Part shown: piece after piece, positions 1 to 36,856 of the stretch
Layout: each line of letters begins with the position of its first letter
How positions within the stretch are numbered: position 1 is the stretch's first letter
NCBI GenBank assembly: GCA_018060985.1
Contig: JAGOUZ010000005.1
Span: forward strand, 1-63,300
Source of the DNA: Minisyncoccota bacterium
GTDB taxonomy: Bacteria; Patescibacteriota; Minisyncoccia; Phycocordibacterales; SBAW01
Reading direction: 5' to 3'
DNA length: 63,300 nucleotides
Position numbers and translations under genes: made by a program
Notes under the pieces: model-generated
Seen by the model: only the letters and a program-made list of their open reading frames with translations
Database searches by the model: none
Told to the model about the DNA's origin: nothing

Positions 1-447
1 CACATCGGCAGGCTCGACGCCATGAAGAATCAGAAAATGTCGCTCGCCAAGGACGTCGGCGTCATCGTCAACCTACCGGACTCGGAAATCGAGTGGGCGG
101 AATGGTCTCCTGAACCTGCCGCCAGAACGCTCGCGCAGTGTCGCGACACTATCGACTACCTCTGCTTCAACGGAGGGGGTCGGCCGGATGCGGATTACAA
201 TCCGGAGTTCACGCGTACGTGGGTGTCGCATCTGCAGAAAAACGGCTCGTGCGGCATCTGCGTCGCGGGCAAGTTCTGCGAAGCGAGCGTCGAACGTCTC
301 CGGCCGCTGCTGCGGCAGTATCCCGAGACCAGCGTGATTGCCGGAAGGCGCTTGCGCGACGCAGACGGCACGCTCAACGTCGATCGCGCTCGCCGGTATC
401 TCGCATACGCTGGCGAGCTCTACGACCAGTACCTCGCTGCCGCGTAA
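1..447 (+). CDS. 5'-truncated hypothetical protein, possibly a TrpF/PRAI-like ribulose-phosphate-binding barrel (C-terminal part)
   Basis: The frame is open from base 1 (HIGRLDA-MKNQ...). The segments YLCFNGGGR, GICVAGKF and SVIAGRRLRDADGTLNVDRARRYL loosely resemble the LLD-SGG-G, LAGGL and S-D-ESGLR motifs of PRAI-like barrels; the match is degenerate. Confidence 0.35.
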   Translation, partial: HIGRLDAMKNQKMSLAKDVGVIVNLPDSEIEWAEWSPEPAARTLAQCRDTIDYLCFNGGGRPDADYNPEFTRTWVSHLQKNGSCGICVAGKFCEASVERLRPLLRQYPETSVIAGRRLRDADGTLNVDRARRYLAYAGELYDQYLAAA

Positions 448-543
448 CCTATGCGGTTTGCAACAGCCAAGGCATCAACTTTCGGTAACTTTTGTACCGC
501 GCCCGCGTTACCATAATGGGCAGGACAACAGGAGAGTCGCGTC

Positions 544-630
544 ATGAAAAAGCTTCTCAAGCTTTGGCAAAACCTTTGCGAAATTCCCCTGGAGTTTCGC
601 AGGTTCAAAGAAAATAACTGGCTTCGCTAA
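544..630 (+). CDS. 28-aa micro-ORF MKKLLKLWQNLCEIPLEFRRFKENNWLR (not in ORF track)
   Basis: AGGAG at 530-534, 9 nt before ATG 544; TAA at 628-630; CATAAT at 512-517; followed by a strong hairpin at 645-671. Confidence 0.45.
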   Translation: MKKLLKLWQNLCEIPLEFRRFKENNWLR

Positions 631-644
631 GGCCAGATACAATA

Positions 645-671
645 AGGCCCCGCACGTTACGTGCGGGGCCT
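645..671. terminator. 12-bp perfect hairpin between convergent genes, probable intrinsic terminator
   Basis: AGGCCCCGCACG-TTA-CGTGCGGGGCCT; U-tracts are weak. Confidence 0.65.
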
Positions 672-680
672 ACTTCTATT

Positions 681-1304
681 TCATGTCGCGGCTAGAGGCT
701 GCCGGCGCCTAGCCCCCGACAGTTCTTCGCTGATGATTGCGTCGAGTCGCAGACGTCGCATGTCGTGGCTTAACTTGCCGCCGAATATTGACCACATCAG
801 AGAAAGGGTGGCGACTAGTGTGACAGCTCCGCCGATGAGCGTGATGGGCCAACGCTCGCCCAGAAATACCAACCCACTGCCAGCGCATATGAGCAATGCT
901 GTCTTGAAGATGTAAGCATTTCCCAGTTGATTCATCTGGGCGATTGGCGTCCACTCAGTATTGTTCTTATCCGCCATCTGATAGAGGAGTGGGTTGTTCT
1001 CCGGCGAAGAAAAGTGCGTGCAGGGGATCACTCGGCCGGACTCGCTCACCGCCAGTACATAGAACACGTTCGAACGTTCGTCCGGGGCGGTGTAGAGCCG
1101 AATCTCCGTGTACTGCTTGTCGGTGTTGCAGTACGTGAGGCCGGCGATCACTGCCTCGAACTTCGACGGCCCAAGGAGTATGAGTTCGGGGATACCCCCA
1201 CCGCGGGAGTCTTTGGTGTAGAACGTCTGGCAGTTGAGATGCTTCATCGCCAAGAGCGCGATGTCGCCTATGTCTTGGCTAAGAGATGCAAAGGTCACCC
1301 GCAT
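681..1304 (-). CDS. hypothetical membrane protein, two C-terminal TM helices
   Basis: 207-aa ORF; GAGGG SD-like sequence upstream; hydrophobic TALLICAGSGLVFLG and ITLIGGAVTLVATLSLMWSIF; has its own promoter and terminator. Confidence 0.7.
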   Translation of the reverse strand: MRVTFASLSQDIGDIALLAMKHLNCQTFYTKDSRGGGIPELILLGPSKFEAVIAGLTYCNTDKQYTEIRLYTAPDERSNVFYVLAVSESGRVIPCTHFSSPENNPLLYQMADKNNTEWTPIAQMNQLGNAYIFKTALLICAGSGLVFLGERWPITLIGGAVTLVATLSLMWSIFGGKLSHDMRRLRLDAIISEELSGARRRQPLAAT

Positions 1305-1352
1305 GTCTAAACCCTCTTTATGATGGAGAGATTCTCCGTTGCGTCTTATTGC

Positions 1353-1380
1353 ACGATACAGTGGAAACTTATTTTGTCAA
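1353..1380 (-). promoter_or_regulatory. sigma70-type promoter for 681-1304
   Basis: Minus strand TTGACA-N16-TATCGT. Confidence 0.6.
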
Positions 1381-1386
1381 ACAAAA

Positions 1387-1413
1387 CACCGCCCCAACTA
1401 GATCGGGGCGGTG
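1387..1413 (-). terminator. intrinsic terminator
   Basis: CACCGCCCC/GGGGCGGTG stem followed on the minus strand by TTTTGTTT. Confidence 0.7.
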
Positions 1414-1420
1414 GGGAAGG

Positions 1421-1861
1421 TTATGATTGGCCTCCGGGTCGCATAAAACAGTAGATCGTACCTTTTTCTGAGTAGGCCCCATAGGAGTCAGCGCTCGAAT
1501 CTCTTTGCTCCGGCGGCACATACACAGGCGCACATACATGAGCGAGCTCTGTCATGCTGGTGCCGTCAAGTATTTTATTTTTAGGGACCTGCACCCACTC
1601 GCCATCGAGAATGACCCACCACTCGCCATTTCTATAATCAGCTTTGGTCGGACGGCAATCCTCGTTGCTGCAGCATCCGATCTCGGGAGAGTCCGGCTGC
1701 ATCCATTCTTCGTAATTTTCACCACCCGATAGGTGTCCGCTCGCATGCAGGTATCCGTGATCGCCCAGACGCTCCTCTGCCTGCACGGGTGCAGCATTGC
1801 TTACCATGAAAAGCAGAACTGCCGCGGCAAGCAGAGCAAACGCCGCTATAATTTTTTGCAT
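1421..1861 (-). CDS. secreted Cys/His-rich hypothetical protein
   Basis: Start moved to ATG 1861 (MQKIIAAF), which has AAGGAG upstream; signal peptide ending PVQA; motifs GCCSNEDCRP, AHVC and IYCF. Confidence 0.75.
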   Translation of the reverse strand: MQKIIAAFALLAAAVLLFMVSNAAPVQAEERLGDHGYLHASGHLSGGENYEEWMQPDSPEIGCCSNEDCRPTKADYRNGEWWVILDGEWVQVPKNKILDGTSMTELAHVCAPVYVPPEQRDSSADSYGAYSEKGTIYCFMRPGGQS

Positions 1862-1940
1862 ATCAGTTCTCCTTGTTGAACGTCTAAATTGCACCATACT
1901 GCGCAAAAAGAATGCCGTCAATTACTTTTTAAAAAGAAAT

Positions 1941-1964
1941 GCCGCCCCGGTAGGTTGGGGCGGC
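1941..1964 (-). terminator. intrinsic terminator
   Basis: GCCGCCCC/GGGGCGGC stem followed on the minus strand by ATTTCTTTTT. Confidence 0.7.
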
Positions 1965-1977
1965 GTGAGAAGGGAAG

Positions 1978-2622
1978 TCACTCGTGGCTGCCGTCGGCGG
2001 CGATAGAAACGAGCTGGTAGCAGTTGCTGCTGTAGTAGCCGCCATCCGTCTTCATCTTGAGGGCATTGTCGTATGCCTCGGAATACGAACCCGCAGCGGC
2101 AACCGCGATACCATCGTATTCCGTTGTAGAGGTTTCTTGGTCGCACTTTACCGCAACGATCCATTGAACGCCGGTATTGTTGGAAAATCCGGCGATCGTA
2201 ACGCACTTGTTCGGATAGTTGGATTTACTGTGGCACATACCTTGTGCAACGTTGTACGCATCGATGCCGGAGGTTCTGTTCCACGTTGCACCATAGCCCG
2301 CATCGACCGAAGCGCTGATTGCCCCCCACTTCATGCTTGTAGGGATGGGCAGTTCGATCAAATAATCGGCCTCTTCCTGCGTCAGGACACCGGTCACAGC
2401 GTGTTCGATGTTCTTCTGGAACTTCGCAATAGCCGTACGGGTATTGGGGCCGATCTTACCGTCTGGAAGTCCAACCACCGGATAACCCAATTCAAACAGT
2501 GTGAACTGGATTGAATAGATGTCGTCGGTTGAAAGGATTGCTTCAGAAGCAGATGCGGGCGGCGTGATGTTGAAAAAGAACATCAGAGTGAACAGAACGA
2601 GCCATGTACGGATCGCAGTCAT
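1978..2622 (-). CDS. secreted peptidoglycan-binding (PG_binding_1-like) plus DUF4189-like domain protein
   Basis: Signal peptide ending ASA; IQFTLFELGY...PDGKIGPNTRTAIAKFQ...TG-L is the PG-binding helix motif; WGAISA...A...C...C followed by a second A...AL...C repeat resembles DUF4189; AAGGAGG SD. Confidence 0.75.
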   Translation of the reverse strand: MTAIRTWLVLFTLMFFFNITPPASASEAILSTDDIYSIQFTLFELGYPVVGLPDGKIGPNTRTAIAKFQKNIEHAVTGVLTQEEADYLIELPIPTSMKWGAISASVDAGYGATWNRTSGIDAYNVAQGMCHSKSNYPNKCVTIAGFSNNTGVQWIVAVKCDQETSTTEYDGIAVAAAGSYSEAYDNALKMKTDGGYYSSNCYQLVSIAADGSHE

Positions 2623-3164: not shown

Positions 3165-4343
3165 ATGAAGAAAATTCTTTTCAGCGGTGCGACGCTTCTT
3201 GTCGTTGGTGCGATGGTGGCAAGTGCAACGGGCGCGTTTTTTAGCGATACAGAAACATCAACAGGTAACACGTTTGCAGCGGGCGCTATTGACCTTAAAG
3301 TAGACAGTGAATCTCACTATGCAGGTTTGACTTGTGTTGAGGGCGTTTGGGTGGATGAAGAAAATGAAGCCTTCGGTCCAGTTACTCGCCCTGATCTTCT
3401 TGGCGATGACTGTGATGGCTCTTGGGCTCAAGCAGACCTTGGTCCAGAACACCAGTTCTTTAACCTGAGCGACATAAAGCCAGGCGATACTGGTGAGAAC
3501 ACCATTTCGCTTCATGTTATCGACAACGACGCGTGGATGTGTGCAGACGTAAAAATCACTTCAAACGACGATGAGTCAACAAACGAGCCTGAACTTGAGG
3601 CTGGGGATGTTGCAGAAGATGTAAACAACACTCTCGACGGCGAACTTGCTCAAAACCTTGAGTTTGCTGCATGGATTGACGACGGAAATGTTGATGGTTG
3701 GCAGGGTACTTCTACCGACTCTGGTGAAGGTGACAACCTTTTCCAGGAAGGAGAGGTTGCACTCTTTGCTCCGGGACCAGCTTCAAACATTCTTAATGGC
3801 ACCACTACTCTTGCGCTTGCCCAATCTGGTGATGCTCCGATTTCTGGTGGCGTGACTCACTATGTTGGTCTTGCTTGGTGTGCAGGCACATTCAATCCTG
3901 ACATGAGCTGTAACGGCGAGGCTATGGGCAACATTGCACAAACTGACTCTATGACAGCGGATATTAGCTTCCGCGCAGAACAGTCTCGCAATAACCCGAA
4001 CTTCACTTGCGGCAATGGTCCGGAAGTTGTTCAGACCACTCTTACTCTCGAAAAAGTCATTACTCAGGATCAGACTGATCCAGTGACTGAGGCAGCTTGG
4101 ACTCTTATGGCAGACGGGGTTACCACGGACCTCAGCGGTTCAGAAGGCCAGCCGGGTGTAACAAATGTTCAAGTTGAAGCAGGAGCATACGTGCTTTCTG
4201 AATCAGTCCTCGCAGGGTTTACACAGACTGATCTTCAGTGTGTAGGTGGAGTGCTTGATACCAATACAGACACAGTAACGGTTGCCGAAGGTGCAAATGT
4301 TACATGTACGTTCTTCAATACGGAGAACACTCTCATTGACTAG
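3165..4343 (+). CDS. SipW-cognate signal peptide protein, TasA/CalY-like fibre subunit with C-terminal prealbumin/SpaA-like Ig domain
   Basis: ATGA|FFSDTETSTGNTFAAGAIDLKVD N-terminus; NLSDIKPGD-GE-TISLHV; WIDDGN; LAWCAG; AQTDS-TADI-F; C-terminal TLTLEKVI...G-Y-LSES...C...V-CTFFN. Confidence 0.85.
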   Translation: MKKILFSGATLLVVGAMVASATGAFFSDTETSTGNTFAAGAIDLKVDSESHYAGLTCVEGVWVDEENEAFGPVTRPDLLGDDCDGSWAQADLGPEHQFFNLSDIKPGDTGENTISLHVIDNDAWMCADVKITSNDDESTNEPELEAGDVAEDVNNTLDGELAQNLEFAAWIDDGNVDGWQGTSTDSGEGDNLFQEGEVALFAPGPASNILNGTTTLALAQSGDAPISGGVTHYVGLAWCAGTFNPDMSCNGEAMGNIAQTDSMTADISFRAEQSRNNPNFTCGNGPEVVQTTLTLEKVITQDQTDPVTEAAWTLMADGVTTDLSGSEGQPGVTNVQVEAGAYVLSESVLAGFTQTDLQCVGGVLDTNTDTVTVAEGANVTCTFFNTENTLID

Positions 4344-4349
4344 TCTCTC

Positions 4350-4426
4350 CTAGCCGTTCACAGTCTCACTTCGGTGGGGCCGTGCGGGCTGGTAGGGAAT
4401 CCCAGTAGTAGAGCAGAGCTCTCTAC
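4350..4426 (+). other. intercistronic RNA hairpins
   Basis: GTCTCAC-TTCG-GTGGGGC (C-UUCG-G loop) extended by CTAGCC/GGCTGG; second stem GTAGAG/CTCTAC at 4408-4426. Confidence 0.55.
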
Positions 4427-4493
4427 GGGACACATGCTCCAGCGTCGTTGGGCAAATTACTAAGTTCACTTTATAAGTTTCCGAATTACAAAA

Positions 4494-6788
4494 ATGAAGC
4501 GCATACTTTTAGGGCTGATCACGATAGTAGGGGCTGCATCGGTTATGTACGTGGGTGTAACGGGTGCGTTTTTTAGCGACACAGAAACATCGACCGGCAA
4601 CACCTTTGCTGCAGGCGACATCGATTTAAAAATTGATAACGAGAGCTACTACAATGGTGTTGCCAACGAGGACACCAGCTGGGAGCTTGTCGACCTAACG
4701 GTTCAGAAGTTCTTTAACTTCCTCGACCTCAAGCCAGACGACTACGGCGAGGACACTATCTCAATACATGTAGACACCAACGACGCTTACATGTGCGCAG
4801 ACGTAACCCTAACTTCTAATGACGACAACGGCATTAACGAACCAGAGTCTTTGGTAGACCAAACCGACGGTGTAGGTAATGGCGAGCTCGCAAATCTTGT
4901 TAACTTTGTCTGGTGGGCAGACGATGGCGACAACGTGCTCGAGACTGACGAAACGCCGCTTCCAGGTGGGCCGCTCGGCGCGCTTGGTGTCGGTCAGACT
5001 ATGAGTCTTGCTCTTGCAGACTCTGCAACAAATATTTGGACAGGACAGGGCGGGCCAGTACCGGGCGATGAGACGCTCTACCTAGGTAAAGCATGGTGCT
5101 TTGGCAATATTGGTACAGCCCCTATTACGCAAGACGGCAGCGGTACGCTGATGTCTCCAGCCGGCAACAACAACGGTAACGAAGTTTCTGGCGAGCCAGA
5201 AGACGGCGGTATTACTTGCGATGGCAGCGCGCTCGGCAACGAAAGCCAGACCGATAAATTGACTGCCGACGTTACCTTTAACGCAGTACAGGCACGCAAC
5301 AACCCGAATTTCCTCTGTGCAGAAGGGGGCGCCTGCGAGTTTGACGCACAGGTAGATATCTTGGCAGCAAGTGCCAAGTTCGAGTCTCCTGAGGTAACTA
5401 CTGCGCAGCAGTGGGATGTCTTTGACTCGCCGGTAGACGGATGGAATGTCGAGTGGCGCGATGCTGGTACGACTACGTTTGGCCCGCAGAATCGCCCAGA
5501 AGTTGCTCACCTCGAGCTGCACGAAAATGTTCTTGGCCCTGCAGCAGAGGGCGACCAGTATGCAGAGCTCGACTCCGACTGGGGCGGTCCATCTGATGCT
5601 GGCACTGGCGAACCTGCGTCAGTAAGCATTTACCGCAGCTACGCCACCACTCCTGGAGCAAGCTACACCCTTAAGTACAGTTTTGCCGCACGTCCAAACA
5701 CGCCGGCTGCAGACAACAATCTCGAGGTGCGTGTAGAAGGCGCTGTGGTAGACACCACCGGTACAACCGCAGGCGGAGGAGGCATTGTGTGGGTAGAGCG
5801 CACGGTTAACTTTGTCGCAACTGACGCATCGACTGAGCTGCGCTTTACCGACCTTGGTACCAGCAACTCAGAAGGCACCTTCCTCGACAATGTCCGCCTC
5901 TACCAGATTAGCTGCCCAAATGGCGGTGGTGATCCTGAAGAGACAACCCTTACACTCCAAAAGACCGTTATCAACGACGACCTTGGCACCGCGGATGACA
6001 GCGACTTTACGCTGGTTGCAGACGGTCCGACAGATATCTCTGGTGTAGAAGGCGCTCCGGCAGTTACCAACGCTGTTGTGTTGCCAGGCAACTATGCGAT
6101 TAGCGAAAGTATCGCTCCTGGTTACAGCACTTCAGTAAGCTGCACTATTAACGGCGGCGCACCGGTAGCTGGAGCCAATGTTTCGATTGCAGAGGGCGAC
6201 AATGTTGTCTGCACCATCACCAACGACGACAACGAACCCGTGGCCTGCACTGTCCCGAACGTTCAATTTGCTGACGGTGTTGTTACTTCGAGCCAGGGTG
6301 TCCGCAAAAACGGCACCGCAGTACTTGCAGCACGTTCAAACCCCTTGGCTGGTATTGGCATCCCACAAACTGCAGGAAACTTCTATGACAATCCTCCCCC
6401 GGCAGATAACACTTTCTTTGCCCTTGGGTTTAAGAACAACGGTACAACGCCGGGAGGTTCGATCACTGTCGAGTTTACCAACAACGTCATTGTTAACGGC
6501 CCAGGTAACGACCTTAAAGTTTGGGAGGTTACCGGCGGCACGAGCTATCCAGACGAACACGTAAAGATCGACGTATCACAAGACGGTGTTAACTGGTTTA
6601 CCGTTGCAGCCGACCTCGTGCGCGACGCACAGGCAGACATCGCAAGCTCTGGTCTTGCATGGGCAAAGTTTGTTCGCATCACTGATGTGTCGCCAATTGC
6701 ACCCTTTGAGGCAACGGCAGACGGCTTTGACCTCGACACCTTTAGCGCCCTCAACTGTGCCGTACCACCAACTCAGCAGGTTCAGTAG
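4494..6788 (+). CDS. SipW-cognate TasA-like subunit with carbohydrate-binding-like, SpaA-like and cell-surface domains
   Basis: VTGA|FFSDTETSTGNTFAAGDIDLKID; TasA-like core paralogous to 3165; YAELDS...YTLKYSFAARP...ELRFTD...GTFLDNVRL (galactose-binding/DUF642-like); TLTLQKTVIND...CTITND; FALGF...GGSITVEF...GNDLKVWE...SQDG...VRITD...DGFDLD. Confidence 0.85.
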   Translation: MKRILLGLITIVGAASVMYVGVTGAFFSDTETSTGNTFAAGDIDLKIDNESYYNGVANEDTSWELVDLTVQKFFNFLDLKPDDYGEDTISIHVDTNDAYMCADVTLTSNDDNGINEPESLVDQTDGVGNGELANLVNFVWWADDGDNVLETDETPLPGGPLGALGVGQTMSLALADSATNIWTGQGGPVPGDETLYLGKAWCFGNIGTAPITQDGSGTLMSPAGNNNGNEVSGEPEDGGITCDGSALGNESQTDKLTADVTFNAVQARNNPNFLCAEGGACEFDAQVDILAASAKFESPEVTTAQQWDVFDSPVDGWNVEWRDAGTTTFGPQNRPEVAHLELHENVLGPAAEGDQYAELDSDWGGPSDAGTGEPASVSIYRSYATTPGASYTLKYSFAARPNTPAADNNLEVRVEGAVVDTTGTTAGGGGIVWVERTVNFVATDASTELRFTDLGTSNSEGTFLDNVRLYQISCPNGGGDPEETTLTLQKTVINDDLGTADDSDFTLVADGPTDISGVEGAPAVTNAVVLPGNYAISESIAPGYSTSVSCTINGGAPVAGANVSIAEGDNVVCTITNDDNEPVACTVPNVQFADGVVTSSQGVRKNGTAVLAARSNPLAGIGIPQTAGNFYDNPPPADNTFFALGFKNNGTTPGGSITVEFTNNVIVNGPGNDLKVWEVTGGTSYPDEHVKIDVSQDGVNWFTVAADLVRDAQADIASSGLAWAKFVRITDVSPIAPFEATADGFDLDTFSALNCAVPPTQQVQ

Positions 6789-6813
6789 CGTATAGCGTTC
6801 CCCAGACAACCTC

Positions 6814-7791
6814 ATGCAGAACAAAACCCACATAGGGGCGAGAGTACTCCTTATAGCAGGAGTCCTTTCGCTCGCCGTGGGTTTGTTGTATGTAAGGGCC
6901 GAGGAGCCAGGCATTACGTTTGCAACTGGCAATGGCCTCGACTTAAAAATAGATTCTAAAGCAACGTACAACGGCGTATTAGTGCCGAGCAGTACGTGGT
7001 CGCTTAAAGATCTTAAGCCCACTAAGGATAAGTTCTGGAACTTTAAAGACATCAAGCCGGGCGATCAGGGCGAAAACACGATAAGCATCCATGTAAACAA
7101 AGACGCCTGGATGTGTTTGGAGTTCTTAAACCTAAAAGAAAAAGAGAATGGCGAAAACGAGCCCGAAGGCCTCGAGGATGCCAGCGCCGTAAATGAAGGC
7201 GAGTTGGCAGATGAAATGGAGTTCTTTGCCTGGCACGACGATGGCGACAATATTTTTGAAGTGGGGGAGACGCCGATTTTTGGCACTTCGACCCAGAGTG
7301 CGGTGAAGGTTCTTAACAACACCGTGTACACGATTGCCGACTACAAGAGCGGCAACCCAATTCCTAAAAACACCACCAAATACTTTGGCATTCAGTGGTG
7401 CGCGGGCAACATGACCGTGAACGTTGCGACAGCAACTATTACGTGCGACGCGACTACTATGGGCAACGAAGCGCAGACCGACAGCATGACGGTAGACGTA
7501 CAGCTAGTAGCTGCCTCTGCCAAAGACGAAAAGAAGTTTAAGTGCAAAGACATCTATCTACCGCCGCCAGGTGAGCAGTGCGAGGTGGGTGAGGTCAAGA
7601 TTATCGTCAACAATAGCGGCTCGGTTACCAACACCTCGTCTTCAAGCTCTAACACCGGAGGCAACTCGGCAGGGAGCGGCGGTACGGTTATTACCGGCAA
7701 TGCCTCGTCAGTAACTAATACGACCAATGTTGTTAATACAACCAACATATCGATCGGATCATTGTTGCAGAATCTGTTCAAGAAAAAGTAA
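6814..7791 (+). CDS. TasA-like paralog lacking the FFSDTETS N-terminal strand
   Basis: GLDLKIDS...NFKDIKPGDQGENTISIHV...WHDDGDN...IQWCAG...AQTDSMT core; the N-terminus is YVRA|EEPG instead; Ser/Thr/Asn-rich tail. Confidence 0.8.
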   Translation: MQNKTHIGARVLLIAGVLSLAVGLLYVRAEEPGITFATGNGLDLKIDSKATYNGVLVPSSTWSLKDLKPTKDKFWNFKDIKPGDQGENTISIHVNKDAWMCLEFLNLKEKENGENEPEGLEDASAVNEGELADEMEFFAWHDDGDNIFEVGETPIFGTSTQSAVKVLNNTVYTIADYKSGNPIPKNTTKYFGIQWCAGNMTVNVATATITCDATTMGNEAQTDSMTVDVQLVAASAKDEKKFKCKDIYLPPPGEQCEVGEVKIIVNNSGSVTNTSSSSSNTGGNSAGSGGTVITGNASSVTNTTNVVNTTNISIGSLLQNLFKKK

Positions 7792-7794
7792 GCT

Positions 7795-8394
7795 ATGCAA
7801 ATCCTTTTCAAAATACTCTACGGCATGTTTGTAACGCTCCTCATCGGTGTGGCAGCGCTACTGTTAGTATCGCTTTTGCCTATAACCGGCAATGTCGAAC
7901 TTAAGATTGTTAAGTCGGGCTCAATGGAGCCGACTATTCCTACCGGTTCTATTGTGCTCGTCATGCCGAGCAAAGAGTACAAAGTAGGCGATGTCATTAC
8001 CTTTGGCAAAGATACTCGAAGCGAGATACCCACCACACACCGCATTGTAAGCATCCGCGAAAATGTGCAGGGCAACTTTTATACCACCAAGGGCGATGCC
8101 AACGAAGAGCAGGATCCTCGCGAAACTGCCGGTAAAGAGATCATAGGTAAAGTGCTCTTTCATGTGCCGTATGCAGGCTACATCTTAGACTTTGCCCGCC
8201 AGCCGCTTGGCTTCGGACTTCTCATTGGAGTACCGGCTGCTATGATCGTGCTCGATGAAAGCGTCAATATATATAGAGAGGTGGTTAGGCTTCGTCGCCG
8301 CAAGAAGGGCCAGTATGTACAAGGTCTCTTGCCGATACCGGTACCGCAGAAGCCAAAGTTCTACAGCGATGATGATCGGATACCGACTATATGA
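7795..8394 (+). CDS. sipW: signal peptidase I, SipW/Sec11-like (S26B)
   Basis: VKSGSMEPTI (Ser), GDVITF, TTHRIV (His), TKGDANEEQD, IIGKV...VPYAGY; N- and C-terminal TM segments. Confidence 0.9.
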   Translation: MQILFKILYGMFVTLLIGVAALLLVSLLPITGNVELKIVKSGSMEPTIPTGSIVLVMPSKEYKVGDVITFGKDTRSEIPTTHRIVSIRENVQGNFYTTKGDANEEQDPRETAGKEIIGKVLFHVPYAGYILDFARQPLGFGLLIGVPAAMIVLDESVNIYREVVRLRRRKKGQYVQGLLPIPVPQKPKFYSDDDRIPTI

Positions 8395-8849
8395 TTTTTA
8401 ACGCACACAAGACTCATCTCGTTCCTACCTTGCTGCTTCTTGCCGCAGCGGTTATTCCTCTGAGTCCGCTTGCTACGCTTGGCGCCTATGGCGACACCGA
8501 AACGTCTTCTGTGAATATAATGCAGGCGTCAGATGATTTTACGCCGCGCAACCAATTTAAAATTCTTCTTGATGAGGGGGGACCTGAAGCGGTTTCGTTT
8601 GCAGCTTTTACAGAAGGTGGAGAAGTTGCAGGAACCTCTACCGAGCCGGTTGTCGAGGTGAGTGAGCCGATAGTTGAGACTACGATTGACGAAGAGGAAG
8701 CAGAGACTCCTTCTGAAACACCAACAGAACCTGTCGTCGAAGTAGGTGAGCCTGTTGTAGAGATTACAACTCCTGACACTACAGAAGATACTTCAGAGCC
8801 AGAAGATGCTGATCCACAGCCTGAACCTACACCACAGGCAGAAGAATAA
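8391..8849 (+). CDS. small SipW-cognate-like secreted protein with acidic Glu/Pro/Thr tail
   Basis: LGA|YGDTETSSVNIMQA resembles the FFSDTETS motif; duplicated TEPVVEV-EP-VE; overlaps the sipW stop (ATGA). Confidence 0.65.
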   Translation: MIFNAHKTHLVPTLLLLAAAVIPLSPLATLGAYGDTETSSVNIMQASDDFTPRNQFKILLDEGGPEAVSFAAFTEGGEVAGTSTEPVVEVSEPIVETTIDEEEAETPSETPTEPVVEVGEPVVEITTPDTTEDTSEPEDADPQPEPTPQAEE

Positions 8850-8887
8850 AAAAACGCCCCAACCTGGTGTAGGTGGGGCGGTTTTTT
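8847..8887. terminator. bidirectional intrinsic terminator
   Basis: A-run, CGCCCC/GGGGCG stem, T-run; lies between convergent genes. Confidence 0.8.
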
Positions 8888-8898
8888 AATTGAAGTGC

Positions 8899-9489
8899 TT
8901 AGGGATTGAGTTCTGCATCCGGAACTTCTGGTGTGCCTTCAAGCTGCGTGCCGCCTGCAGCGCTACCTTCGATCGTTGTCTGTCCGGTAGCGATTACTGC
9001 CGCAGCAGTAAGCGAACGGGTTACGTTAAGAATGATGAAATCCAGTGACTGGCCCGTGCCAACGTCGCCGCGGGTTGTTGCAGCAGCCTGTGCAGCAAGT
9101 AGGGTCTGGCTTTGACGGCTAAGCACGCGGGCTACATCGGCGGCAAGAGTCTTGGCTTCATCGTCGCGGTCTTCGGCTTCAAGTTTGGTAATTGTGTCAG
9201 AGATGTTCTTCATGCGGTCGTTAAAGTCGGCAACGAGCGACGAATACACGTCTGCCTCAATGGTTCCTTTGCCTGCAGCTACCGATGCTTCTGTAAGACG
9301 GCGCTCTGCAAGCGTGATATCACGATCGGTGCGGGCGCTATCTGACATAGCGAGCATGTCGCCAACCTTCTCGTTGACGCTTAACTTATACCCATAGAGC
9401 ATGTCGCCCGGTACTGCCTGACTGGCAGCCAAAGATACGCCACCACCGAATACAATGACCGCTCCTAGTGCAATGATTATTTTTGACAT
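8899..9489 (-). CDS. DUF5667-like membrane-anchored helical protein
   Basis: TM then A-Q-AVPGDMLYGYKL-VNE...LAERRL-EA motif; start taken as ATG 9489 (MSKIII), ORF track starts at 9555. Confidence 0.7.
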   Translation of the reverse strand: MSKIIIALGAVIVFGGGVSLAASQAVPGDMLYGYKLSVNEKVGDMLAMSDSARTDRDITLAERRLTEASVAAGKGTIEADVYSSLVADFNDRMKNISDTITKLEAEDRDDEAKTLAADVARVLSRQSQTLLAAQAAATTRGDVGTGQSLDFIILNVTRSLTAAAVIATGQTTIEGSAAGGTQLEGTPEVPDAELNP

Positions 9490-9560
9490 ATATGCATGAT
9501 TAGACGCCCAGTAAGCTATTTTCTTACGAACTATTTCATGATACCCTGTAGGCATATTTT

Positions 9561-10663: not shown

Positions 10664-11113
10664 ATGGCAGAGCTGTTCCAAGCGTTCGGTATCGACTGGA
10701 AGATTCTGGTCATCAACCTCGTAAACTTCGGGGGCTTGGTGCTTGTGCTGTGGTACTTCCTCTACGGGCCAGTGGTTCGCATGCTTGAGGCCCGCCGGCA
10801 AAATATTGCCGAGGGTGTTGCTGCGGCAGAAAAGTCTAAGCAGGAGCTCGGGGAGATAGAGGGTGCTCGCGCTGGCATGCTTGCTAAGGCAGGCAAGGAG
10901 GCAGATGACGTGCTTTCGAGCGCTCGTGCCGCTGGTACAGAAAAGCAGCGCGAGATTATGAACACTGCAGAGGCTGCGGCACATCGCGTCCTTACTGAAG
11001 CGCAGGCTCAGGCTAAAGAGATGAAAGACACTGCTATGGCAGAAAGCAAGCAGGAAGTGGCTAAGCTCATCGTGCTCGGTATTGAAAAGACGCTAAAAGA
11101 GAAACGATCATGA
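10664..11113 (+). CDS. atpF: F0F1 ATP synthase subunit b
   Basis: FGIDWK...NF...LYGPV...RR; helical stalk. Confidence 0.95.
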   Translation: MAELFQAFGIDWKILVINLVNFGGLVLVLWYFLYGPVVRMLEARRQNIAEGVAAAEKSKQELGEIEGARAGMLAKAGKEADDVLSSARAAGTEKQREIMNTAEAAAHRVLTEAQAQAKEMKDTAMAESKQEVAKLIVLGIEKTLKEKRS

Positions 11114-11367
11114 CCTTAGCGAGGATGTATGCCGAGGCGCTGTACAAAGCGCAGCAGGGGAAGGCGACAAAAGAGCACAGTAAAAATTTAGCAGCAGCAC
11201 TGAAGCGCCGCGGACATCTCAAACTTCTCCCGCAGATTGCCGCAGAGTATGAAAAACTCCATGAGCGCCAAGAACGGTCGACGAAGTACAAAAAAGTAAC
11301 TCCCGAAAGCGAACAGACCCGAGTACTTTTAGAGCTCTATCAGAAACTTGTTTCAAACCATGGCTAA
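11110..11367 (+). CDS. atpH: short F1 delta subunit (85 aa)
   Basis: Position between atpF and atpA; YAEALY and [12 protein letters not shown]; C-terminal domain absent. Confidence 0.7.
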
Positions 11368-16079: not shown

Positions 16080-17975
16080 ATGAAGTTAAATCGTGTAGAG
16101 ATAAAGAACTTTCGGTCGATAAAGGACAGTACTGTCACTTTCGACCCTTCTTGTCGGGTGCTAGTAGGGATCAACGAGTCGGGAAAAACAAACGTCCTTA
16201 AGGCCCTCAGGCTTTTAACTGGTAAGTACAAATCGTCAAAAGTAAACGACGTGAGAGAGAGGGTGGGGAGGGAAAAAGCGGTTACAGAGGCCTATGTACG
16301 GTTCATTTTTCGCTTGGAGAAACCGGACTCCGATTCAGTATTTAAGCATGCCTCAGCCATTGTTTTATCGAACGAAGCAGACCCTGAGATTGTGGTGGCT
16401 GGTACTGAGAAGATATCGCTAAGCGCCTTCTGCTCAAAGCGCAATGAGGGTCTTTATACAATAAATATTAGAGAACAGACTCGGCAAGCTCAGTACTGGA
16501 CTTTGAGTTCCGCTCACAAATTAGTGCCTGGGTGGAAGACTCCAAGTGCTGCTTGTCCGGAGGATTATTCGGTTGAGGTTGAAGGGGAGAATAAGAAGCT
16601 AAAGACGTTCCGACTGGTTCGCGCGGCTGACTTTCCAGATATCCCAAAGGAGTATCTGGAAGGCGTCACTATAGAGCCTCTTTCTGCAAACGTCGGAGGT
16701 ACCATTACCGGCCTTGTTGATAGTCAGCTCCCCGAAGTTGTGTTTTGGGAGTACGACGAAAATGACTTGTTGCCTAATACAGTCGAAATAGCCGCTTTTG
16801 CGGCAAATCCTGACTCATGCGTCCCGCTAAAGCACATGTTTGTCCTCGCAGGCATAGAGGAAGACAACATTAAAGAGACTATAGAAGGGGAGCTTAAAGG
16901 TACGCCCAACCAAATTCAAAACTTTTTGGACCAAATTGCTGAACAAACTACCGCGCATTTTCGAGAAGTGTGGGAAGAGTACCGCGACGTCTCTTTCTCT
17001 CTGCGCCTCAATGCGAACAACATGGTGCCGGGCGTAAAGGAAGCCAACACGCATGACTTCGATAAAAGAAGCGACGGCTTCAAGCGTTTTGTCACCTTCC
17101 TCCTGATGATCTCGGTAAAGGTAAAAACGGATCAGATGAAAAACTCCCTCCTGCTCATTGACGAGCCGGAGATAGGTCTCCACCCATCTGGAGCTCGCTA
17201 CCTACGTAACGAGCTGATTAAGATCGCAAAACAAAACTACGTTGTTTATAGTACCCACTCGATTTTTATGATCGATTCTGGTGATATTGCTCGACACTAT
17301 ATTGTCAAAAAGAAGGGGGAGATCACCACCCTCGAGGCTGCACAGGCTTCAAACATTGCAGAAGAGGAGGTGCTGTGGAACGCGCTCGGTTACTCGGCCT
17401 TTGAGGTTCTTAAGGAAAAGAACCTTATTTTTGAGGGGTGGAAAGATAAGTATCTGTTTCAGGTTGCCTTAGCGGCGGCATCCGATACGCTTAAGCGAAA
17501 GTTTGTAAACGTTGGTATATGTCATGGCAAGGGCGCTAGCTCTATTAAGGCCATAACCCCAATTATAGCGCTGGCACGACGTGACTGTATTATCGTGAGT
17601 GATGCTGATGCGCCAGCTCTTTCTGAACAGAAGCGCTACAAAGCTGACAAGGGTTACGGTACCTGGCTTACCTATAATGAAGTAGATACAAGTGTATCTG
17701 CGTTAACGGGAGAAGACTTTGTGAAAAAAGATTTCGTTGTCACAACGGTTAATAGTGTCCTTGCAGGGTCAAACATGCCGCAGTTTACCGAGACTGACCT
17801 TCCAAGCGACAACGGAAAACTTGCGGCCATTTCTACCTGGCTTACTACGAACGGCATGAGCCAAGAGCAAGCAAAGACACAGCTTGTCGCCATAAAAGAA
17901 AGTATTTTCGAGGACCTCGAAGCAAAAAATATAGAGGCCGAGTATACGAAACTCTTGAAGGGAATAAAGTTGTAA
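16080..17975 (+). CDS. OLD-family ABC-type ATPase fused to TOPRIM nuclease
   Basis: IKNFRSI; Walker A GINESGKT; signature-like RSDGFKR; Walker B LLIDEPEIGLHP; STHS; TOPRIM LIFEGWKD, HGKG, IVSDAD, TGEDF. Confidence 0.85.
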   Translation: MKLNRVEIKNFRSIKDSTVTFDPSCRVLVGINESGKTNVLKALRLLTGKYKSSKVNDVRERVGREKAVTEAYVRFIFRLEKPDSDSVFKHASAIVLSNEADPEIVVAGTEKISLSAFCSKRNEGLYTINIREQTRQAQYWTLSSAHKLVPGWKTPSAACPEDYSVEVEGENKKLKTFRLVRAADFPDIPKEYLEGVTIEPLSANVGGTITGLVDSQLPEVVFWEYDENDLLPNTVEIAAFAANPDSCVPLKHMFVLAGIEEDNIKETIEGELKGTPNQIQNFLDQIAEQTTAHFREVWEEYRDVSFSLRLNANNMVPGVKEANTHDFDKRSDGFKRFVTFLLMISVKVKTDQMKNSLLLIDEPEIGLHPSGARYLRNELIKIAKQNYVVYSTHSIFMIDSGDIARHYIVKKKGEITTLEAAQASNIAEEEVLWNALGYSAFEVLKEKNLIFEGWKDKYLFQVALAAASDTLKRKFVNVGICHGKGASSIKAITPIIALARRDCIIVSDADAPALSEQKRYKADKGYGTWLTYNEVDTSVSALTGEDFVKKDFVVTTVNSVLAGSNMPQFTETDLPSDNGKLAAISTWLTTNGMSQEQAKTQLVAIKESIFEDLEAKNIEAEYTKLLKGIKL

Positions 17976-17994
17976 TTTAATCTCCAAACTCCTT

Positions 17995-18810
17995 ATGAGC
18001 GACGTCCAGATAAAAGATAAGGCTTTGTATGCCGTGGCACTCATGGCAGCCTTTTTGGCCTTCAGCACTTTTAAGACGGAAATGAGTGCTATGTTTGTTC
18101 CTATAGGTTCATTTTCCTTCAGCCTTCTAAGCATCATGCTCTTTTTCGTCTTTCTCCTAACCCTTGCAGTGTATCTTTATGGTCTTGAGTATGTGAGATA
18201 TAGCTTCCCAAAGTATCAAAACTTCTTCTTGTTCAGGATGATAGTACCGGCTGCAAATTTTGTATACACCGTTGCAATAACTTTTCCGCTCCTAGTGTTT
18301 GTCATGTGGCTCATTTCTATCACCCCTCTCTATGCTTTGGCTAAAGAGCACACTTTCTGGGTGACGGTCTTTGATACCTTGGCTATCCTTGTCGCTCTCA
18401 TCGCGGGTGTATTTAACAGCTATTCCCTAAAGAGACAGACTTTGCGAAAGCACACTGAGATTATAGAACAGTTGCGCGGTAACTCGTTGCGGACCGCATT
18501 TAGCTTGTTTAAAAGCAAGCTCTATTCCGTGAGCATTTTTGAAGCCTATCGTGCTTTGGAGGCTCTGCTAAAAGAGATACTGCTGGAAAAAAAGGGTTTT
18601 ACTACCGAGCGACTGGATAGACAAGCCATTATAGACATGGCTATAAGGGAAGAGGTTATAGAATCAAAATTCATTCCAATTCTTAAGGAAATTAAGATTC
18701 AGAGGAACGCTGCGGTTCATGGATCGGAGGAGCGCACGGAGGAAGAAGCGAGAAATGTGCTTAATGCAGTAAAAAGCATCATCGAACACTATGCTCCCAC
18801 TGGTGAATGA
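17995..18810 (+). CDS. 4-TM membrane protein with C-terminal HEPN (DUF4145-like) domain
   Basis: Four hydrophobic segments in aa ~10-145; EAYRALEALLKE helix; Rx4H motif RNAAVH at 18703-18720. Confidence 0.75.
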   Translation: MSDVQIKDKALYAVALMAAFLAFSTFKTEMSAMFVPIGSFSFSLLSIMLFFVFLLTLAVYLYGLEYVRYSFPKYQNFFLFRMIVPAANFVYTVAITFPLLVFVMWLISITPLYALAKEHTFWVTVFDTLAILVALIAGVFNSYSLKRQTLRKHTEIIEQLRGNSLRTAFSLFKSKLYSVSIFEAYRALEALLKEILLEKKGFTTERLDRQAIIDMAIREEVIESKFIPILKEIKIQRNAAVHGSEERTEEEARNVLNAVKSIIEHYAPTGE

Positions 18811-36054: not shown

Positions 36055-36093
36055 TAGACGCATGGTCTATTAACAGTTTTATTTTAGGGATGT

Positions 36094-36822: not shown

Positions 36823-36856
36823 GACTGATTCTGTTAAAAAATGGTAGGATAGTTCG

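What the first reader, a model, noticed from the sequence alone, without database searches (positions are those of the whole stretch)
3165..8849. Complete SipW/TasA-type secreted fibre operon in a CPR-like genome
Seen: five co-oriented genes closed by one terminator, comprising three paralogs sharing a Cys-containing TasA/CalY-like core, a SipW-type peptidase and a fourth small putative substrate. Genes 1 and 2 share the mature N-terminus FFSDTETSTGNTFAAG. Known: Bacillus TasA (tapA-sipW-tasA), B. cereus CalY and archaeal bundling pili are SipW-processed subunits that polymerise by donor-strand exchange. Inference: this is a dedicated non-type-IV pilus or matrix fibre in which the 392-aa gene is the shaft and the 764-aa gene a decorated adhesin. 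For an episymbiont this is a plausible host-attachment or bundling system that I am not aware has been characterised in CPR.
Basis: partly seen in the sequence, partly recalled or inferred. Interest (0 to 1): 0.78.

Follow-up and report, generated by a model that had tools for sequence, protein, structure and literature searches.

The report
TasA-like fibre gene cassette in Patescibacteria
Five adjacent genes in an uncultured ultra-small wastewater bacterium most likely build a secreted protein fibre related to the Bacillus biofilm fibre TasA, and comparison with about 80 related genomes shows a conserved kit (two chain subunits, a subunit that cannot extend the chain, a dedicated signal peptidase, and a small protein carrying only the linking strand) that had not been described.

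Summary
Window 3165-8849 has five co-oriented genes closed by a strong bidirectional terminator. They encode three paralogous Cys-containing beta-sandwich proteins, an ER/archaeal-type (SipW-like) signal peptidase, and a small secreted protein.

The fibre interpretation is supported by homology and anatomy, but it was not tested directly.
- The AlphaFold core has the TasA fibre (8AUR) as its best PDB match, though the TM-score is only 0.33-0.37.
- Sequence similarity to TasA/camelysin covers only the signal peptide and the N-terminal strand.

Comparison with 80 Patescibacteria loci adds new detail. The cassette is self-contained and conserved, with three paralogue classes.
- Classes A and B (genes 1 and 2) carry the strand FFSDTETSTGN.
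- Class C (gene 3) always lacks it.
- The module after the peptidase (gene 5) carries a strand-like motif but no core. In about half of the relatives it is fused to the peptidase behind an extra membrane helix.

I read this as a polar donor-strand fibre: gene 5 starts it (TapA-like logic), genes 1 and 2 extend it, and gene 3 ends it. TasA homologues in Patescibacteria were already noted in a 2022 survey and in NCBI names. This is therefore a new variant of a known kind. Confidence in fibre formation is about 0.6.

The parts
3165..4343 (+). g1, class A subunit (392 aa). Signal peptide about res 1-24 (3165-3236). Putative donor strand FFSDTETSTGNTFAAG, res 25-40 (3237-3284). Cys-rich TasA-like beta-sandwich core to about res 290 (to 4034). 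C-terminal SpaA_2 prealbumin-like domain, res 291-382.
   Evidence: ORF. PF12389 22.6 bits on res 12-49 only, and SpaA_2 63 bits. TIGR04088 18.5 bits against a cut-off of 19. AF2 models: pLDDT 86 and 88, N-terminal strand below 50. Foldseek top hit is the TasA fibre. More than 2133 homologues. Class A is the best-conserved class and usually the first gene.
4344..4493 (+). 150-nt structured spacer after the class A gene, with no T-run. Possibly an attenuator or mRNA-stabilising element that sets the g1:g2 ratio (inference).
   Evidence: MFE -55.1 kcal/mol, z = -4.4. Spacers after class A genes in relatives are long (median about 90 nt) and structured in 40 of 43 cases, but spacers after B/C genes are also often structured (21 of 32).
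4494..6788 (+). g2, class B subunit (764 aa). Same signal peptide and donor strand as g1, then core (to about res 285), a DUF642/choice-of-anchor-C-like domain (about 372-468), a SpaA_2 domain (483-575), and an unassigned C-terminal domain (about 580-764).
   Evidence: Sub-threshold hits to DUF642, CBM_6 and F5/8 type C. Assigned to class B.
6814..7791 (+). g3, class C subunit (325 aa). Signal segment, no donor strand (LLYVRAEEPG replaces AFFSDTETSTGN), conserved core with four Cys, and a conserved Asn/Ser/Thr/Gly-rich tail ending in LFKKK.
   Evidence: 37% identity to g1. No Pfam or NCBIfam hit. Class C is separated from A/B by at least 84 bits and always lies directly upstream of the peptidase. 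The donor-strand HMM matches only from position 12 or later in 30/30 and 116/120 members. The tail is conserved in orthologues.
7795..8394 (+). g4, ER/archaeal-type (SipW-like) signal peptidase I (199 aa). N-terminal and C-terminal membrane segments, catalytic S43/H82/D101, and a basic cytoplasmic tail.
   Evidence: TIGR02228 106.7 bits (cut-off 51.85); NF046067 108.7 bits (cut-off 190). SEC11A/C in the PDB at E about 1e-10. Motifs invariant in 121 sequences. Hydrophobic segments at 1-35 and 136-154. Present in the cassette in 68 fetched loci.
8391..8849 (+). g5, class D module (152 aa). Signal segment, donor-strand-like motif AYGDTETSSVNIMQA, then an acidic Pro/Glu/Thr/Val-rich tail with no core domain.
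   Evidence: No family hit. Donor-strand HMM 7.7 bits; 0 of 2430 unrelated ORFs reach that score. Positional equivalents sit after, or fused to, the peptidase in most of the fetched related loci. hhalign of the D family against the core family gives E 6e-10 over 33 columns only. Orthologues are 60% identical, with the motif block invariant.
8850..8887 (.). Bidirectional intrinsic terminator that closes the cassette and the convergent gene 8899-9555.
   Evidence: Sequence. Fold -21.9 kcal/mol, z = -4.0.

Best explanation
The locus is a self-contained five-gene cassette for a TasA-like extracellular fibre of a Paceibacteria-type (Parcubacteria) CPR bacterium.

Shown:
- It encodes three paralogous secreted Cys-containing beta-sandwich proteins, a dedicated ER-type signal peptidase, and a small secreted protein.
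- The same kit, in the same order, is conserved across Patescibacteria.

Inferred mechanism:
1. All four non-enzyme proteins are exported by Sec and cut by g4 just before the conserved N-terminal segment. For g1 and g2 this is ...TGA|FFSDTETSTGNTF...
2. That freed N-terminal segment acts as a donor beta-strand. It completes the beta-sandwich of the next subunit, as residues 28-38 of TasA do.
3. g1 (class A) and g2 (class B, carrying extra lectin-like and SpaA-type domains) have both strand and acceptor core, so they can extend a chain. g1 is probably the bulk subunit and g2 a decorated minor subunit.
4. g3 (class C) has the acceptor core but no strand. It can accept a strand but cannot pass one on, so it would occupy one end of the fibre as a terminator or tip.
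5. g5 (class D) has a strand but no core. It would fill the acceptor groove of the first subunit and so nucleate or hold the other end, as proposed for the N-terminus of TapA in B. subtilis.
6. In about half of the relatives, D is fused to the C-terminus of the peptidase through a basic cytoplasmic linker and a third membrane helix. This places the strand next to the catalytic domain on the outer face, which argues that nucleation or holding happens at the membrane beside the processing enzyme.

The biological role (host attachment, cell-cell bundling or matrix) is not determined.
For: Components and conservation:
- Gene set and family hits.
- In 80 GTDB loci, nearly every contig that reaches far enough has 2-5 co-oriented core genes followed by the peptidase. 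The commonest order is A-B-C-S(+D).
- No other flanking gene family recurs in more than 11 of 77 loci.

TasA relationship:
- PF12389 matches the signal peptide plus strand.
- For the core-only AF2 model, the top PDB hit of 350,542 chains is the TasA fibre 8aur_A (E 2.2e-4, probability 1.00, 217 columns of a 233-residue target). AbpA ranks third.
- The N-terminal 16 mature residues are unpacked in both models. This is the behaviour reported for other donor-strand subunits.
- In TasA, residues 28-38 are the donor strand, and the TapA N-terminus resembles it.

End pieces:
- Donor-strand HMM medians: A 61.7 bits, B 55.5, C 0.3 (n = 30). For 120 further class C proteins the median is 4.3, and the match starts at position 12 or later in 116 of 120.
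- D modules match from HMM position 1-5, with a median of about 11-12 bits; no unrelated ORF reaches g5's 7.7 bits, so the background is 0 of 2430.
- The D family resembles the core family only over g1 residues 20-52 (hhalign E 6e-10).

Fusions and coupling:
- 26 of 29 distinct fusions have three hydrophobic segments and a basic linker (median 67.5 aa, 13.5 K+R). The motif starts within -1 to +11 residues of the third segment in 22 of 26.
- g4 and g5 overlap by ATGA, and the median gap between C and the peptidase gene is 1 nt.
- Donor strands of A and B from one operon are more alike than those from different operons (0.774 against 0.720; 0 of 2000 permutations). The same holds for A and D (0.458 against 0.435; 14 of 2000).
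- Peptidase catalytic motifs are invariant.
Against: - No multimer model, no transcript or protein data, and no image of a fibre. No RNA run holds the locus.
- TM-scores to TasA and AbpA are only 0.33-0.37 and 0.25-0.33. A profile of the family finds nothing in PDB sequences.
- The Pfam and TIGRFAM hits sit at their cut-offs and cover only the N-terminus.
- The conserved N-terminal motif could instead be a recognition element for the peptidase. The within-operon matching fits that reading too.
- g5's own score on the strand HMM is weak (7.7 bits) and covers only part of the motif.
- Cleavage sites are inferred from the -3/-1 rule and from analogy with TasA. Whether C or D stay membrane-anchored is unknown, so the polarity of the model could be reversed.
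- No anchoring device (sortase, LPXTG) is present.
Confidence: 0.6

Rival explanations
1. The proteins are non-polymerising secreted or surface proteins (adhesins, or matrix or wall-associated proteins) that share a dedicated export and processing route. The conserved N-terminal motif is the recognition element of the SipW-like peptidase, or a short propeptide, and not a donor strand. The beta-sandwich core may bind a ligand peptide or glycan, as MSCRAMM adhesins do by strand complementation with host peptides.
For: - Foldseek also returns MSCRAMM adhesin domains (SdrE 5wtb_B, E 1e-3; FnBPA 4b5z, probability 0.96) and yeast Epa lectins at similar TM-scores.
- g1 and g2 carry adhesin-type SpaA_2 domains and carbohydrate-binding-like domains.
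- Similarity to TasA is weak.
- The within-operon matching of the motif would also follow from adaptation to one peptidase.
Against: - It does not explain why one conserved paralogue class keeps the core and signal segment but has lost exactly the roughly 12-residue segment.
- It does not explain why a module made of that segment alone is conserved next to, or fused with, the peptidase.
- The motif is conserved for about 20 residues past the predicted cut site. I take that, without testing it, to be more than signal peptidase recognition needs.
- TasA fibre is the single best PDB match.
Confidence: 0.2
2. The same strand-swapping subunits build a two-dimensional surface layer or sheath around the cell, rather than long free fibres.
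For: - Several paralogues with large surface domains and conserved disulfide cysteines would suit a coat on cells that lack an outer membrane.
- The family is very abundant in Paceibacteria.
Against: - A single N-terminal strand per subunit gives a linear chain. A terminator-type subunit and a nucleator-type module point to a polar, one-dimensional polymer.
- No lattice-forming S-layer domain (SLH or similar) was found.
Confidence: 0.1
3. The proteins are secreted camelysin-type (M73) metalloproteases or other enzymes.
For: The Pfam family that matches is named Peptidase_M73 (camelysin).
Against: - The match covers only profile positions about 4-51 of 196, that is the signal peptide and N-terminal strand, in g1, g2 and ten relatives.
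- No protease fold appears among the structural matches.
Confidence: 0.03

Closest known systems
Bacillus subtilis tapA-sipW-tasA (TasA fibre, PDB 8AUR; Böhning et al. 2022, PMC9674648; Roske et al. 2023, PMC10151520)
   Same: - A dedicated ER-type signal peptidase is encoded with its substrates.
- The subunit has a beta-sandwich core whose best PDB match is TasA.
- A conserved mature N-terminus has the pattern F-x-D...T-F-A-x-G-x-(I/L)-D-L, which PF12389 recognises.
- An accessory protein shares only the donor-strand-like N-terminus (TapA there, g5/D here). Its gene overlaps the peptidase gene.
   Different: - Gene order differs: subunits first, then peptidase, then accessory.
- There are three specialised paralogue classes, including a strand-less one with no described TasA counterpart.
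- The core is larger (about 250 aa) with two or three conserved Cys pairs and long insertions.
- Subunits carry SpaA-type and lectin-like C-terminal domains.
- The accessory module is fused to the peptidase in about half of the relatives.
- g5 has no TapA-like folded domain. In relatives D carries a lamin-tail domain.
- Sequence similarity beyond the N-terminus is undetectable.
Bacillus cereus group sipW-tasA-calY (camelysin/CalY, Pfam PF12389)
   Same: - Several TasA-like paralogues are encoded next to sipW.
- NCBI names some CPR homologues 'CalY family protein' or 'TasA family protein'.
   Different: I did not check whether it has a strand-less paralogue.
- The CPR proteins match PF12389 only over the first 50 or so profile positions.
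Archaeal bundling pili AbpA/AbpB of Pyrobaculum calidifontis (PDB 7UEG; Wang et al. 2022, PMC9245690)
   Same: - Donor-strand-complemented jelly-roll pilin, structurally related to TasA.
- It ranks third among PDB matches of the g1 core.
- A second, larger protein (AbpB) is proposed to provide the first strand and act as adhesin.
   Different: - No dedicated peptidase is found near the ABP operon.
- The structural match is weaker (E 3.3e-3, TM 0.25-0.33).
Chaperone-usher pili (Fim/Pap) of diderm bacteria
   Same: Same logic of a polar donor-strand polymer: the distal tip adhesin lacks the N-terminal extension, and a non-subunit strand (from the chaperone) occupies the groove at the growing base. 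In the present model, C and D would play those two parts.
   Different: - Unrelated proteins, and no chaperone or usher here.
- These are monoderm-type cells.
- This is an analogy only. It rests on established knowledge of that pathway.
Sortase-assembled Gram-positive pili (SpaA, RrgB)
   Same: The C-terminal domains of g1 and g2 match SpaA_2 (63 and 70 bits). They draw Foldseek hits to RrgB and isopeptide-bonded adhesins. A Lys/Glu/Asn triad is conserved.
   Different: - No LPXTG-type sorting signal or C-terminal membrane anchor is present in g1-g3 (read from the translations).
- No sortase-like gene family recurs beside the cassette.

Membership tests
TasA/camelysin family (Pfam PF12389 Peptidase_M73) | Whole-protein score at or above the Pfam gathering cut-off (22.5 bits) | tested here: inconclusive
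   g1 and g2 score 22.6 bits, just above the cut-off, but only on residues about 2-50 (profile 4-50 of 196). g3 has no hit. Ten relatives score 25-36 bits, again over the N-terminus only.
TasA/camelysin family (Pfam PF12389 Peptidase_M73) | Jelly-roll/beta-sandwich core superposable on TasA (5OF1, 8AUR) | tested here: inconclusive
   The top PDB hit of the core-only model is 8aur_A (E 2.2e-4, probability 1.00, 217 columns). However, TM is 0.33/0.37 and rmsd 7.3 Å, and monomeric TasA is not among the 50 listed hits. A sequence profile finds no PDB chain.
TasA/camelysin family (Pfam PF12389 Peptidase_M73) | Polymerisation by insertion of the mature N-terminal strand into the next subunit | not testable with these tools
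   No multimer prediction was available. Indirect evidence only: the N-terminus is unpacked in monomer models, and the paralogue classes are strand-less and strand-only.
SipW-dependent-type signal peptide proteins (TIGR04088) | Score at or above the curated cut-off (19 bits) | tested here: not met
   g1 and g2 score 18.5 bits, 0.5 bit short. g3 and g5 have no hit. JGI and NCBI nevertheless name many homologues this way.
SipW-dependent-type signal peptide proteins (TIGR04088) | Encoded next to an ER-type signal peptidase | tested here: met
   g4 lies within the cassette, and the peptidase is found in the cassette in 68 of the fetched loci.
ER/archaeal-type signal peptidase I (TIGR02228; SipW/Sec11 type) | Model score above cut-off; Ser/His(/Asp) catalytic motifs rather than Ser/Lys | tested here: met
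   106.7 bits against 51.85. SEC11A/C at E 2e-10 to 8e-10. SGSMEP, THR and KGDAN are invariant in 121 sequences. That these are the catalytic boxes comes from established knowledge of Sec11/SipW.
Bacillus SipW equivalog (NF046067) | Score at or above the equivalog cut-off (190 bits) | tested here: not met
   108.7 bits. g4 is the same type of enzyme but not an ortholog-level match.
TapA (TasA anchoring/assembly protein) | Homology to TapA beyond the N-terminal strand | tested here: not met
   g5 has no Pfam or NCBIfam hit at all. D modules of relatives carry lamin-tail domains instead. Only the logic is shared: a strand-like N-terminus, and a gene coupled to the peptidase gene.
Sortase-dependent pilins (SpaA type) | C-terminal LPXTG sorting signal with membrane anchor; sortase gene in the cluster | tested here: not met
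   g1 ends ...NTENTLID and g2 ends ...PPTQQVQ, with no C-terminal hydrophobic segment. No recurrent flanking family was found.
Type IV pilins | Class III signal peptide: short basic leader, G|F/M cleavage, then a hydrophobic helix with Glu5 | tested here: not met
   In g1-g3 and g5 the hydrophobic segment precedes the conserved motif, and the mature N-terminus is polar.

The most novel reading that the evidence does not exclude
The module after the peptidase (g5 here, fused to the peptidase in about half of the relatives) is a membrane-sited assembly platform. Its strand occupies the acceptor groove of the basal subunit, right beside the catalytic site that releases new subunits. Each newly cut subunit displaces it, so the fibre grows from the base. 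This would be a two-protein, monoderm counterpart of chaperone-usher logic. The strand-less class C protein would then be the first-made distal tip. That would make it a distinct assembly mode within the TasA superfamily, and the main non-type-IV surface fibre of Paceibacteria.
Probability: 0.2. Interest if true: 0.8.

Novelty: new variant of a known kind. Interest (0 to 1): 0.6.

Why it matters
Most Patescibacteria outside the Saccharibacteria are uncultured. How they attach to hosts or to each other is largely unknown, and type IV pili are the only surface fibres studied in the group so far.

This cassette is widespread. There are more than 2,000 homologues of g1 and about 1,100 clusters at 50% identity with E ≤ 1e-30. 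It is self-contained and small enough to express heterologously, so it is a concrete candidate for a second fibre system.

The natural variants are useful for the TasA field. The strand-less class C, the strand-only class D, and the peptidase-D fusions amount to a ready-made set of genetic dissections of how donor-strand fibres are started, ended and kept at the cell. That question is still open for TasA and TapA.

Class C proteins are annotated only as 'hypothetical protein' and have no Pfam family. A new profile would improve the annotation of thousands of genes.

Tried and rejected
- Sequence bridge to solved structures: g1 alone and a 73-sequence profile found no TasA or AbpA chain in PDB sequences, even at E ≤ 10.
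- Full-length Foldseek search was dominated by SpaA-type pilins and adhesins through the C-terminal domain. I therefore re-modelled the core alone.
- A tandem or linker construct to imitate a dimer was considered but not submitted.
- Expression: no RNA run holds the locus.
- Promoter scan: nothing above the shuffled expectation (4 found, 5.5 expected), so I name no promoter.
- The terminator scan missed the real terminator. It was recovered by reading and folding.
- A search for further conserved partners (sortase, chaperone, glycosyltransferase) around 77 loci found none in more than 11 loci.
- D tail as a diverged TasA core: hhalign aligns only 33 columns, so this was rejected on present evidence.
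- g2 C-terminal domain: only sub-threshold hints (F5/8 type C, E 0.12).
- The representative-library count is inflated by giant SpaA-repeat proteins, because the profile kept the SpaA columns. It is used only as a rough family size.
- Structured spacer after class A as a specific attenuator: spacers after B and C genes are also often structured, and the control used only mononucleotide shuffles. This is kept as a weak observation.

Full report
1. What is in the sequence

Window 3165-8849 holds five co-oriented ORFs:
- g1, 3165-4343 (392 aa)
- g2, 4494-6788 (764 aa)
- g3, 6814-7791 (325 aa)
- g4, 7795-8394 (199 aa)
- g5, 8391-8849 (152 aa)

g2 to g5 are tightly packed. The gaps are 25 nt and 3 nt, and g4-g5 overlap by ATGA. 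g1 and g2 are separated by a 150-nt spacer that folds far better than shuffles (z = -4.4) but has no T-run.

Directly after g5 lies a bidirectional intrinsic terminator at 8850-8887 (-21.9 kcal/mol, z = -4.0). The pattern scan missed it because of a bulge in the stem. The next gene (8899-9555, DUF5667) converges on it, and an ATP synthase operon follows.

An independent Logan contig carries the same arrangement. Two related genomes keep the five genes in the same neighbourhood. No other copy of these gene types occurs in the 63-kb window.

2. The proteins

g1, g2 and g3 are paralogues, at 48% and 37% identity to g1. Four cysteines are invariant. g1 and g2 share an identical FFSDTETSTGNTFAAG stretch after the signal segment.

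Family hits for g1 and g2:
- PF12389 (camelysin/TasA): 22.6 bits against a cut-off of 22.5, matching residues about 2-50 only.
- TIGR04088 (SipW-cognate signal peptide): 18.5 bits against 19.
- Clear C-terminal SpaA_2 domains: 63 and 70 bits.

g2 also has a DUF642/choice-of-anchor-C-like domain and an unassigned C-terminal domain. Both have only sub-threshold lectin-like hints.

g3 and g5 match no family.

g4 is an ER/archaeal-type signal peptidase I:
- TIGR02228 scores 106.7 bits against a cut-off of 51.85.
- The Bacillus SipW equivalog model scores 108.7 bits, below its cut-off of 190.
- Human SEC11A/C are the only solved relatives.
- SGSMEP, THR and KGDAN are invariant in 121 homologues.
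- It has hydrophobic segments at both ends.

3. Whose genome

All close homologues of g1, g3 and g4 come from Patescibacteria MAGs. The nearest named ones are Adlerbacteria, at 62-68% identity. The 80 loci recovered from GTDB species representatives are almost all titled Patescibacteria, Paceibacterota or Parcubacteria lineages.

The rest of the window holds housekeeping genes (LeuRS, AlaRS, RpoA, S4, DnaK, YchF, MnmA). It also holds DUF5667 and DUF5671, which I recall as typical of this group; this was not checked here. The runs that hold the sequence are wastewater metagenomes.

4. Relationship to TasA

At sequence level the link is thin. PF12389 matches only the signal peptide, the following strand and the first core strand. 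This holds for g1, g2 and ten relatives. A 73-sequence profile finds no PDB chain.

At structure level the evidence is better.
- The AlphaFold model of g1 is confident (pLDDT 86.2). The core-only model is better still (pLDDT 88.1, pTM 0.82).
- In both models the mature N-terminal 16 residues are the only unpacked part.
- The core-only model's best match among 350,542 PDB chains is the TasA fibre subunit 8aur_A (E 2.2e-4, probability 1.00, 217 aligned columns of a 233-residue target). It is the only match with E ≤ 0.001.
- The archaeal bundling pilin AbpA (7ueg_A) ranks third.
- TM-scores are modest (0.33-0.37). The core is roughly the length of the whole TasA chain and has long Cys-containing insertions.

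I therefore treat this as remote homology supported by several independent lines. It is not clean family membership.

In TasA, residues 28-38 of the mature N-terminus are the donor strand that completes the next subunit. The TapA N-terminus resembles that strand and is thought to provide the first one.

5. What the relatives add

I called ORFs in the 80 loci and searched them with HMMs built from the g1 family core, its SpaA domain and the peptidase family.

- Nearly every contig that extends far enough has 2-5 co-oriented core genes followed by the peptidase.
- The core genes fall into three classes: A (g1-like, n = 105), B (g2-like, n = 80) and C (g3-like, n = 30).
- Class C is separated from the others by at least 84 bits and always lies directly upstream of the peptidase, with a median gap of 1 nt.
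- The commonest order is A-B-C-peptidase.
- No other flanking gene family recurs in more than 11 of 77 loci, so the cassette is self-contained.

An HMM of the strand region (g1 residues 20-48) gives these scores:

| Class | n | Median bits | Where the match starts |
|---|---|---|---|
| A | 105 | 61.7 | not tabulated per class; A/B consensus keeps the full strand |
| B | 80 | 55.5 | not tabulated per class; A/B consensus keeps the full strand |
| C | 30 | 0.3 | position 12 or later |
| C (further set) | 120 | 4.3 | position 12 or later in 116 of 120 |

Class C therefore keeps TFATG...LKIDS but lacks AFFSDTETSTGN. All 120 further class C proteins are annotated 'hypothetical protein'.

6. The fifth gene

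In about half of the loci the peptidase ORF is 340-730 aa long. After the peptidase domain and its second membrane segment come three further parts:
- a basic linker (median 67.5 aa, 13.5 Lys+Arg),
- a third hydrophobic segment,
- and immediately after it a motif such as GGTISYFSDIERSIGNVFRAG or GSTVSYFNDIESS..N.L.A..LDF.

This holds for 26 of 29 distinct fusions. The motif starts within -1 to +11 residues of the third segment in 22 of 26.

In most other loci a separate gene directly after the peptidase starts with a signal segment and the same motif. These D modules match the strand HMM from positions 1-5, with a median of about 11-12 bits.

g5 scores 7.7 bits on AYGDTETSSVNIMQA. Among 2433 other ORFs of at least 80 aa in these loci, only three reach that score. 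All three are D modules that I had missed, lying right after the peptidase in L009, L015 and L048.

Profile-profile comparison of the D family with the core family is significant (probability 96.6%, E 6e-10). It covers only 33 columns, equal to g1 residues 20-52. The rest of D is unrelated to the core. In relatives it often contains a lamin-tail domain. In the window and its close relatives it is an acidic Pro/Glu/Thr/Val-rich tail.

g5 orthologues in two related genomes are 60% identical, with the block SPL.T..AYGDTETSS.N..QA invariant. So g5 is a real, constrained gene.

7. Most likely mechanism

Shown: the parts list and its conservation.

Inferred: a polar donor-strand polymer.
- g4 cuts the precursors before the conserved segment. 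This follows from analogy with TasA and the -3/-1 rule.
- A and B have both strand and acceptor core, so they extend chains.
- C can accept a strand but cannot donate one, so it can only sit at one end.
- D can donate but cannot accept, so it can only sit at the other end. That is the part proposed for the N-terminus of TapA.

The fusion of D to the peptidase has a topology that puts the strand on the same face as the catalytic domain. This suggests that starting or holding the chain happens at the membrane next to processing.

Whether D is cut off or stays tethered is not known. The same is true of C, so the polarity relative to the cell could be either way.

g1 is probably the bulk subunit:
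- it is the first gene,
- its class is the most conserved,
- it is followed by a long structured spacer, as in 40 of 43 relatives (spacers after other genes are also often structured).

g2 would be a decorated minor subunit.

Donor strands of A and B from the same operon are slightly but significantly more alike than those from different operons (0.774 against 0.720; 0 of 2000 permutations). The same holds for A and D (14 of 2000). This fits co-adaptation to a shared groove, but equally to a shared peptidase.

8. Rivals

- The main rival is a set of non-polymerising surface or secreted adhesins, whose N-terminal motif serves peptidase recognition. MSCRAMM adhesin domains do appear among the weaker structural matches. 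This rival does not explain the strand-less class or the strand-only module.
- A two-dimensional coat is possible but fits a one-strand-per-subunit design less well.
- A protease role has no support beyond the Pfam family name.

9. Novelty

Wang et al. 2022 listed Patescibacteria among the phyla with PF12389 homologues. NCBI and JGI already name some members 'TasA family', 'CalY family' or 'SipW-dependent-type signal peptide-containing protein'. So the presence of TasA-like genes in CPR is known.

I found no paper that treats SipW or TasA-like fibres in CPR. Nothing I found describes the three paralogue classes, the strand-less class, the strand-only module or its fusion to the peptidase.

I rate this a new variant of a known kind.

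10. Limits

- No multimer modelling, expression data or imaging was possible here.
- Cleavage sites, disulfides and the isopeptide triad are inferred.
- TM-scores to TasA are low.
- Taxonomic labels of some loci (section 'noticed in passing') were not checked.

Noticed in passing
window 7534-7788 (g3 tail); L083:10100-10438: The Asn/Ser/Thr/Gly-rich C-terminal tail of g3 (VNNSGSVTNTSSSSSNTGGNSAG..TVITG..NVVNTTNISIGSLLQNLFKKK) is as conserved as the core in orthologues. So it is a functional module and not random low complexity. A similar module (36% identity, E 2e-8) forms a separate 112-aa secreted protein encoded just after D in two related genomes, and is absent from the window.
   Followed up: partly
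window 4035-4340 and 5940-6220 (SpaA_2 domains of g1, g2): Lys297, Glu346 and Asn378 (g1 numbering) are conserved in 47, 49 and 45 of 56 SpaA_2-type domains of the family. The full-length model draws Foldseek hits to isopeptide-bonded adhesins and pilins (5u6f, RrgB). This may be an intramolecular isopeptide bond, but the geometry was not checked.
   Followed up: partly
L001:524-2149; L084:1-1533; L083:1-159 (just upstream of the window's left end): Genes for COX3, COX4_pro and UbiA (haem O synthase type) lie a few kb upstream of the cassette in the same contig and in two relatives. To my knowledge, terminal oxidase genes are uncommon in Patescibacteria.
   Followed up: no
window 1-2622: This region has higher G+C (55%) than the cassette (48-53%). 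It holds small minus-strand ORFs without family hits, plus a PG_binding_1 + DUF4189 protein at 1978-2622. The junction is not an assembly artefact, because the Logan contig and the relatives keep it.
   Followed up: partly
window 20520-23639 (-), 23646-24932 (-): A full-length AcrB/RND-type transporter (603 bits) lies next to a 428-aa protein with no family hit. An RND pump is odd in a lineage thought to lack an outer membrane.
   Followed up: no
window 16080-18810; 35251-37729: Defence-like genes: an OLD/AAA_15-type ATPase followed by a HEPN/DUF4145 protein; an ATP-cone + Mrr_cat nuclease; and a PD-(D/E)XK nuclease.
   Followed up: no
window 11110-11367: The ORF in the position of the ATP synthase delta subunit is only 85 aa long and has no recorded family hit. 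Relatives have 88 aa.
   Followed up: no
L078; L011, L027, L028, L030, L031, L036: One locus with a class A gene and a peptidase-D fusion is titled 'Candidatus Nanoarchaeia archaeon'. Six others are titled Gammaproteobacteria, Pseudomonadales or Bdellovibrionales MAGs. This could be mislabelling, mis-binning or transfer; it was not checked.
   Followed up: no
L080:6372-7760 and eight other loci: A further secreted protein family of about 460 aa recurs directly after the D gene in 9 of 77 loci. It is absent from the window.
   Followed up: no
L083:4907-7969; L084:3948-6954 against window 3165-6788: In the two closest genomes, class A is 479-502 aa and class B is 481-484 aa. In the window they are 392 and 764 aa. 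So the C-terminal decoration of the subunits is swapped between near relatives, while C, the peptidase and D stay constant.
   Followed up: no
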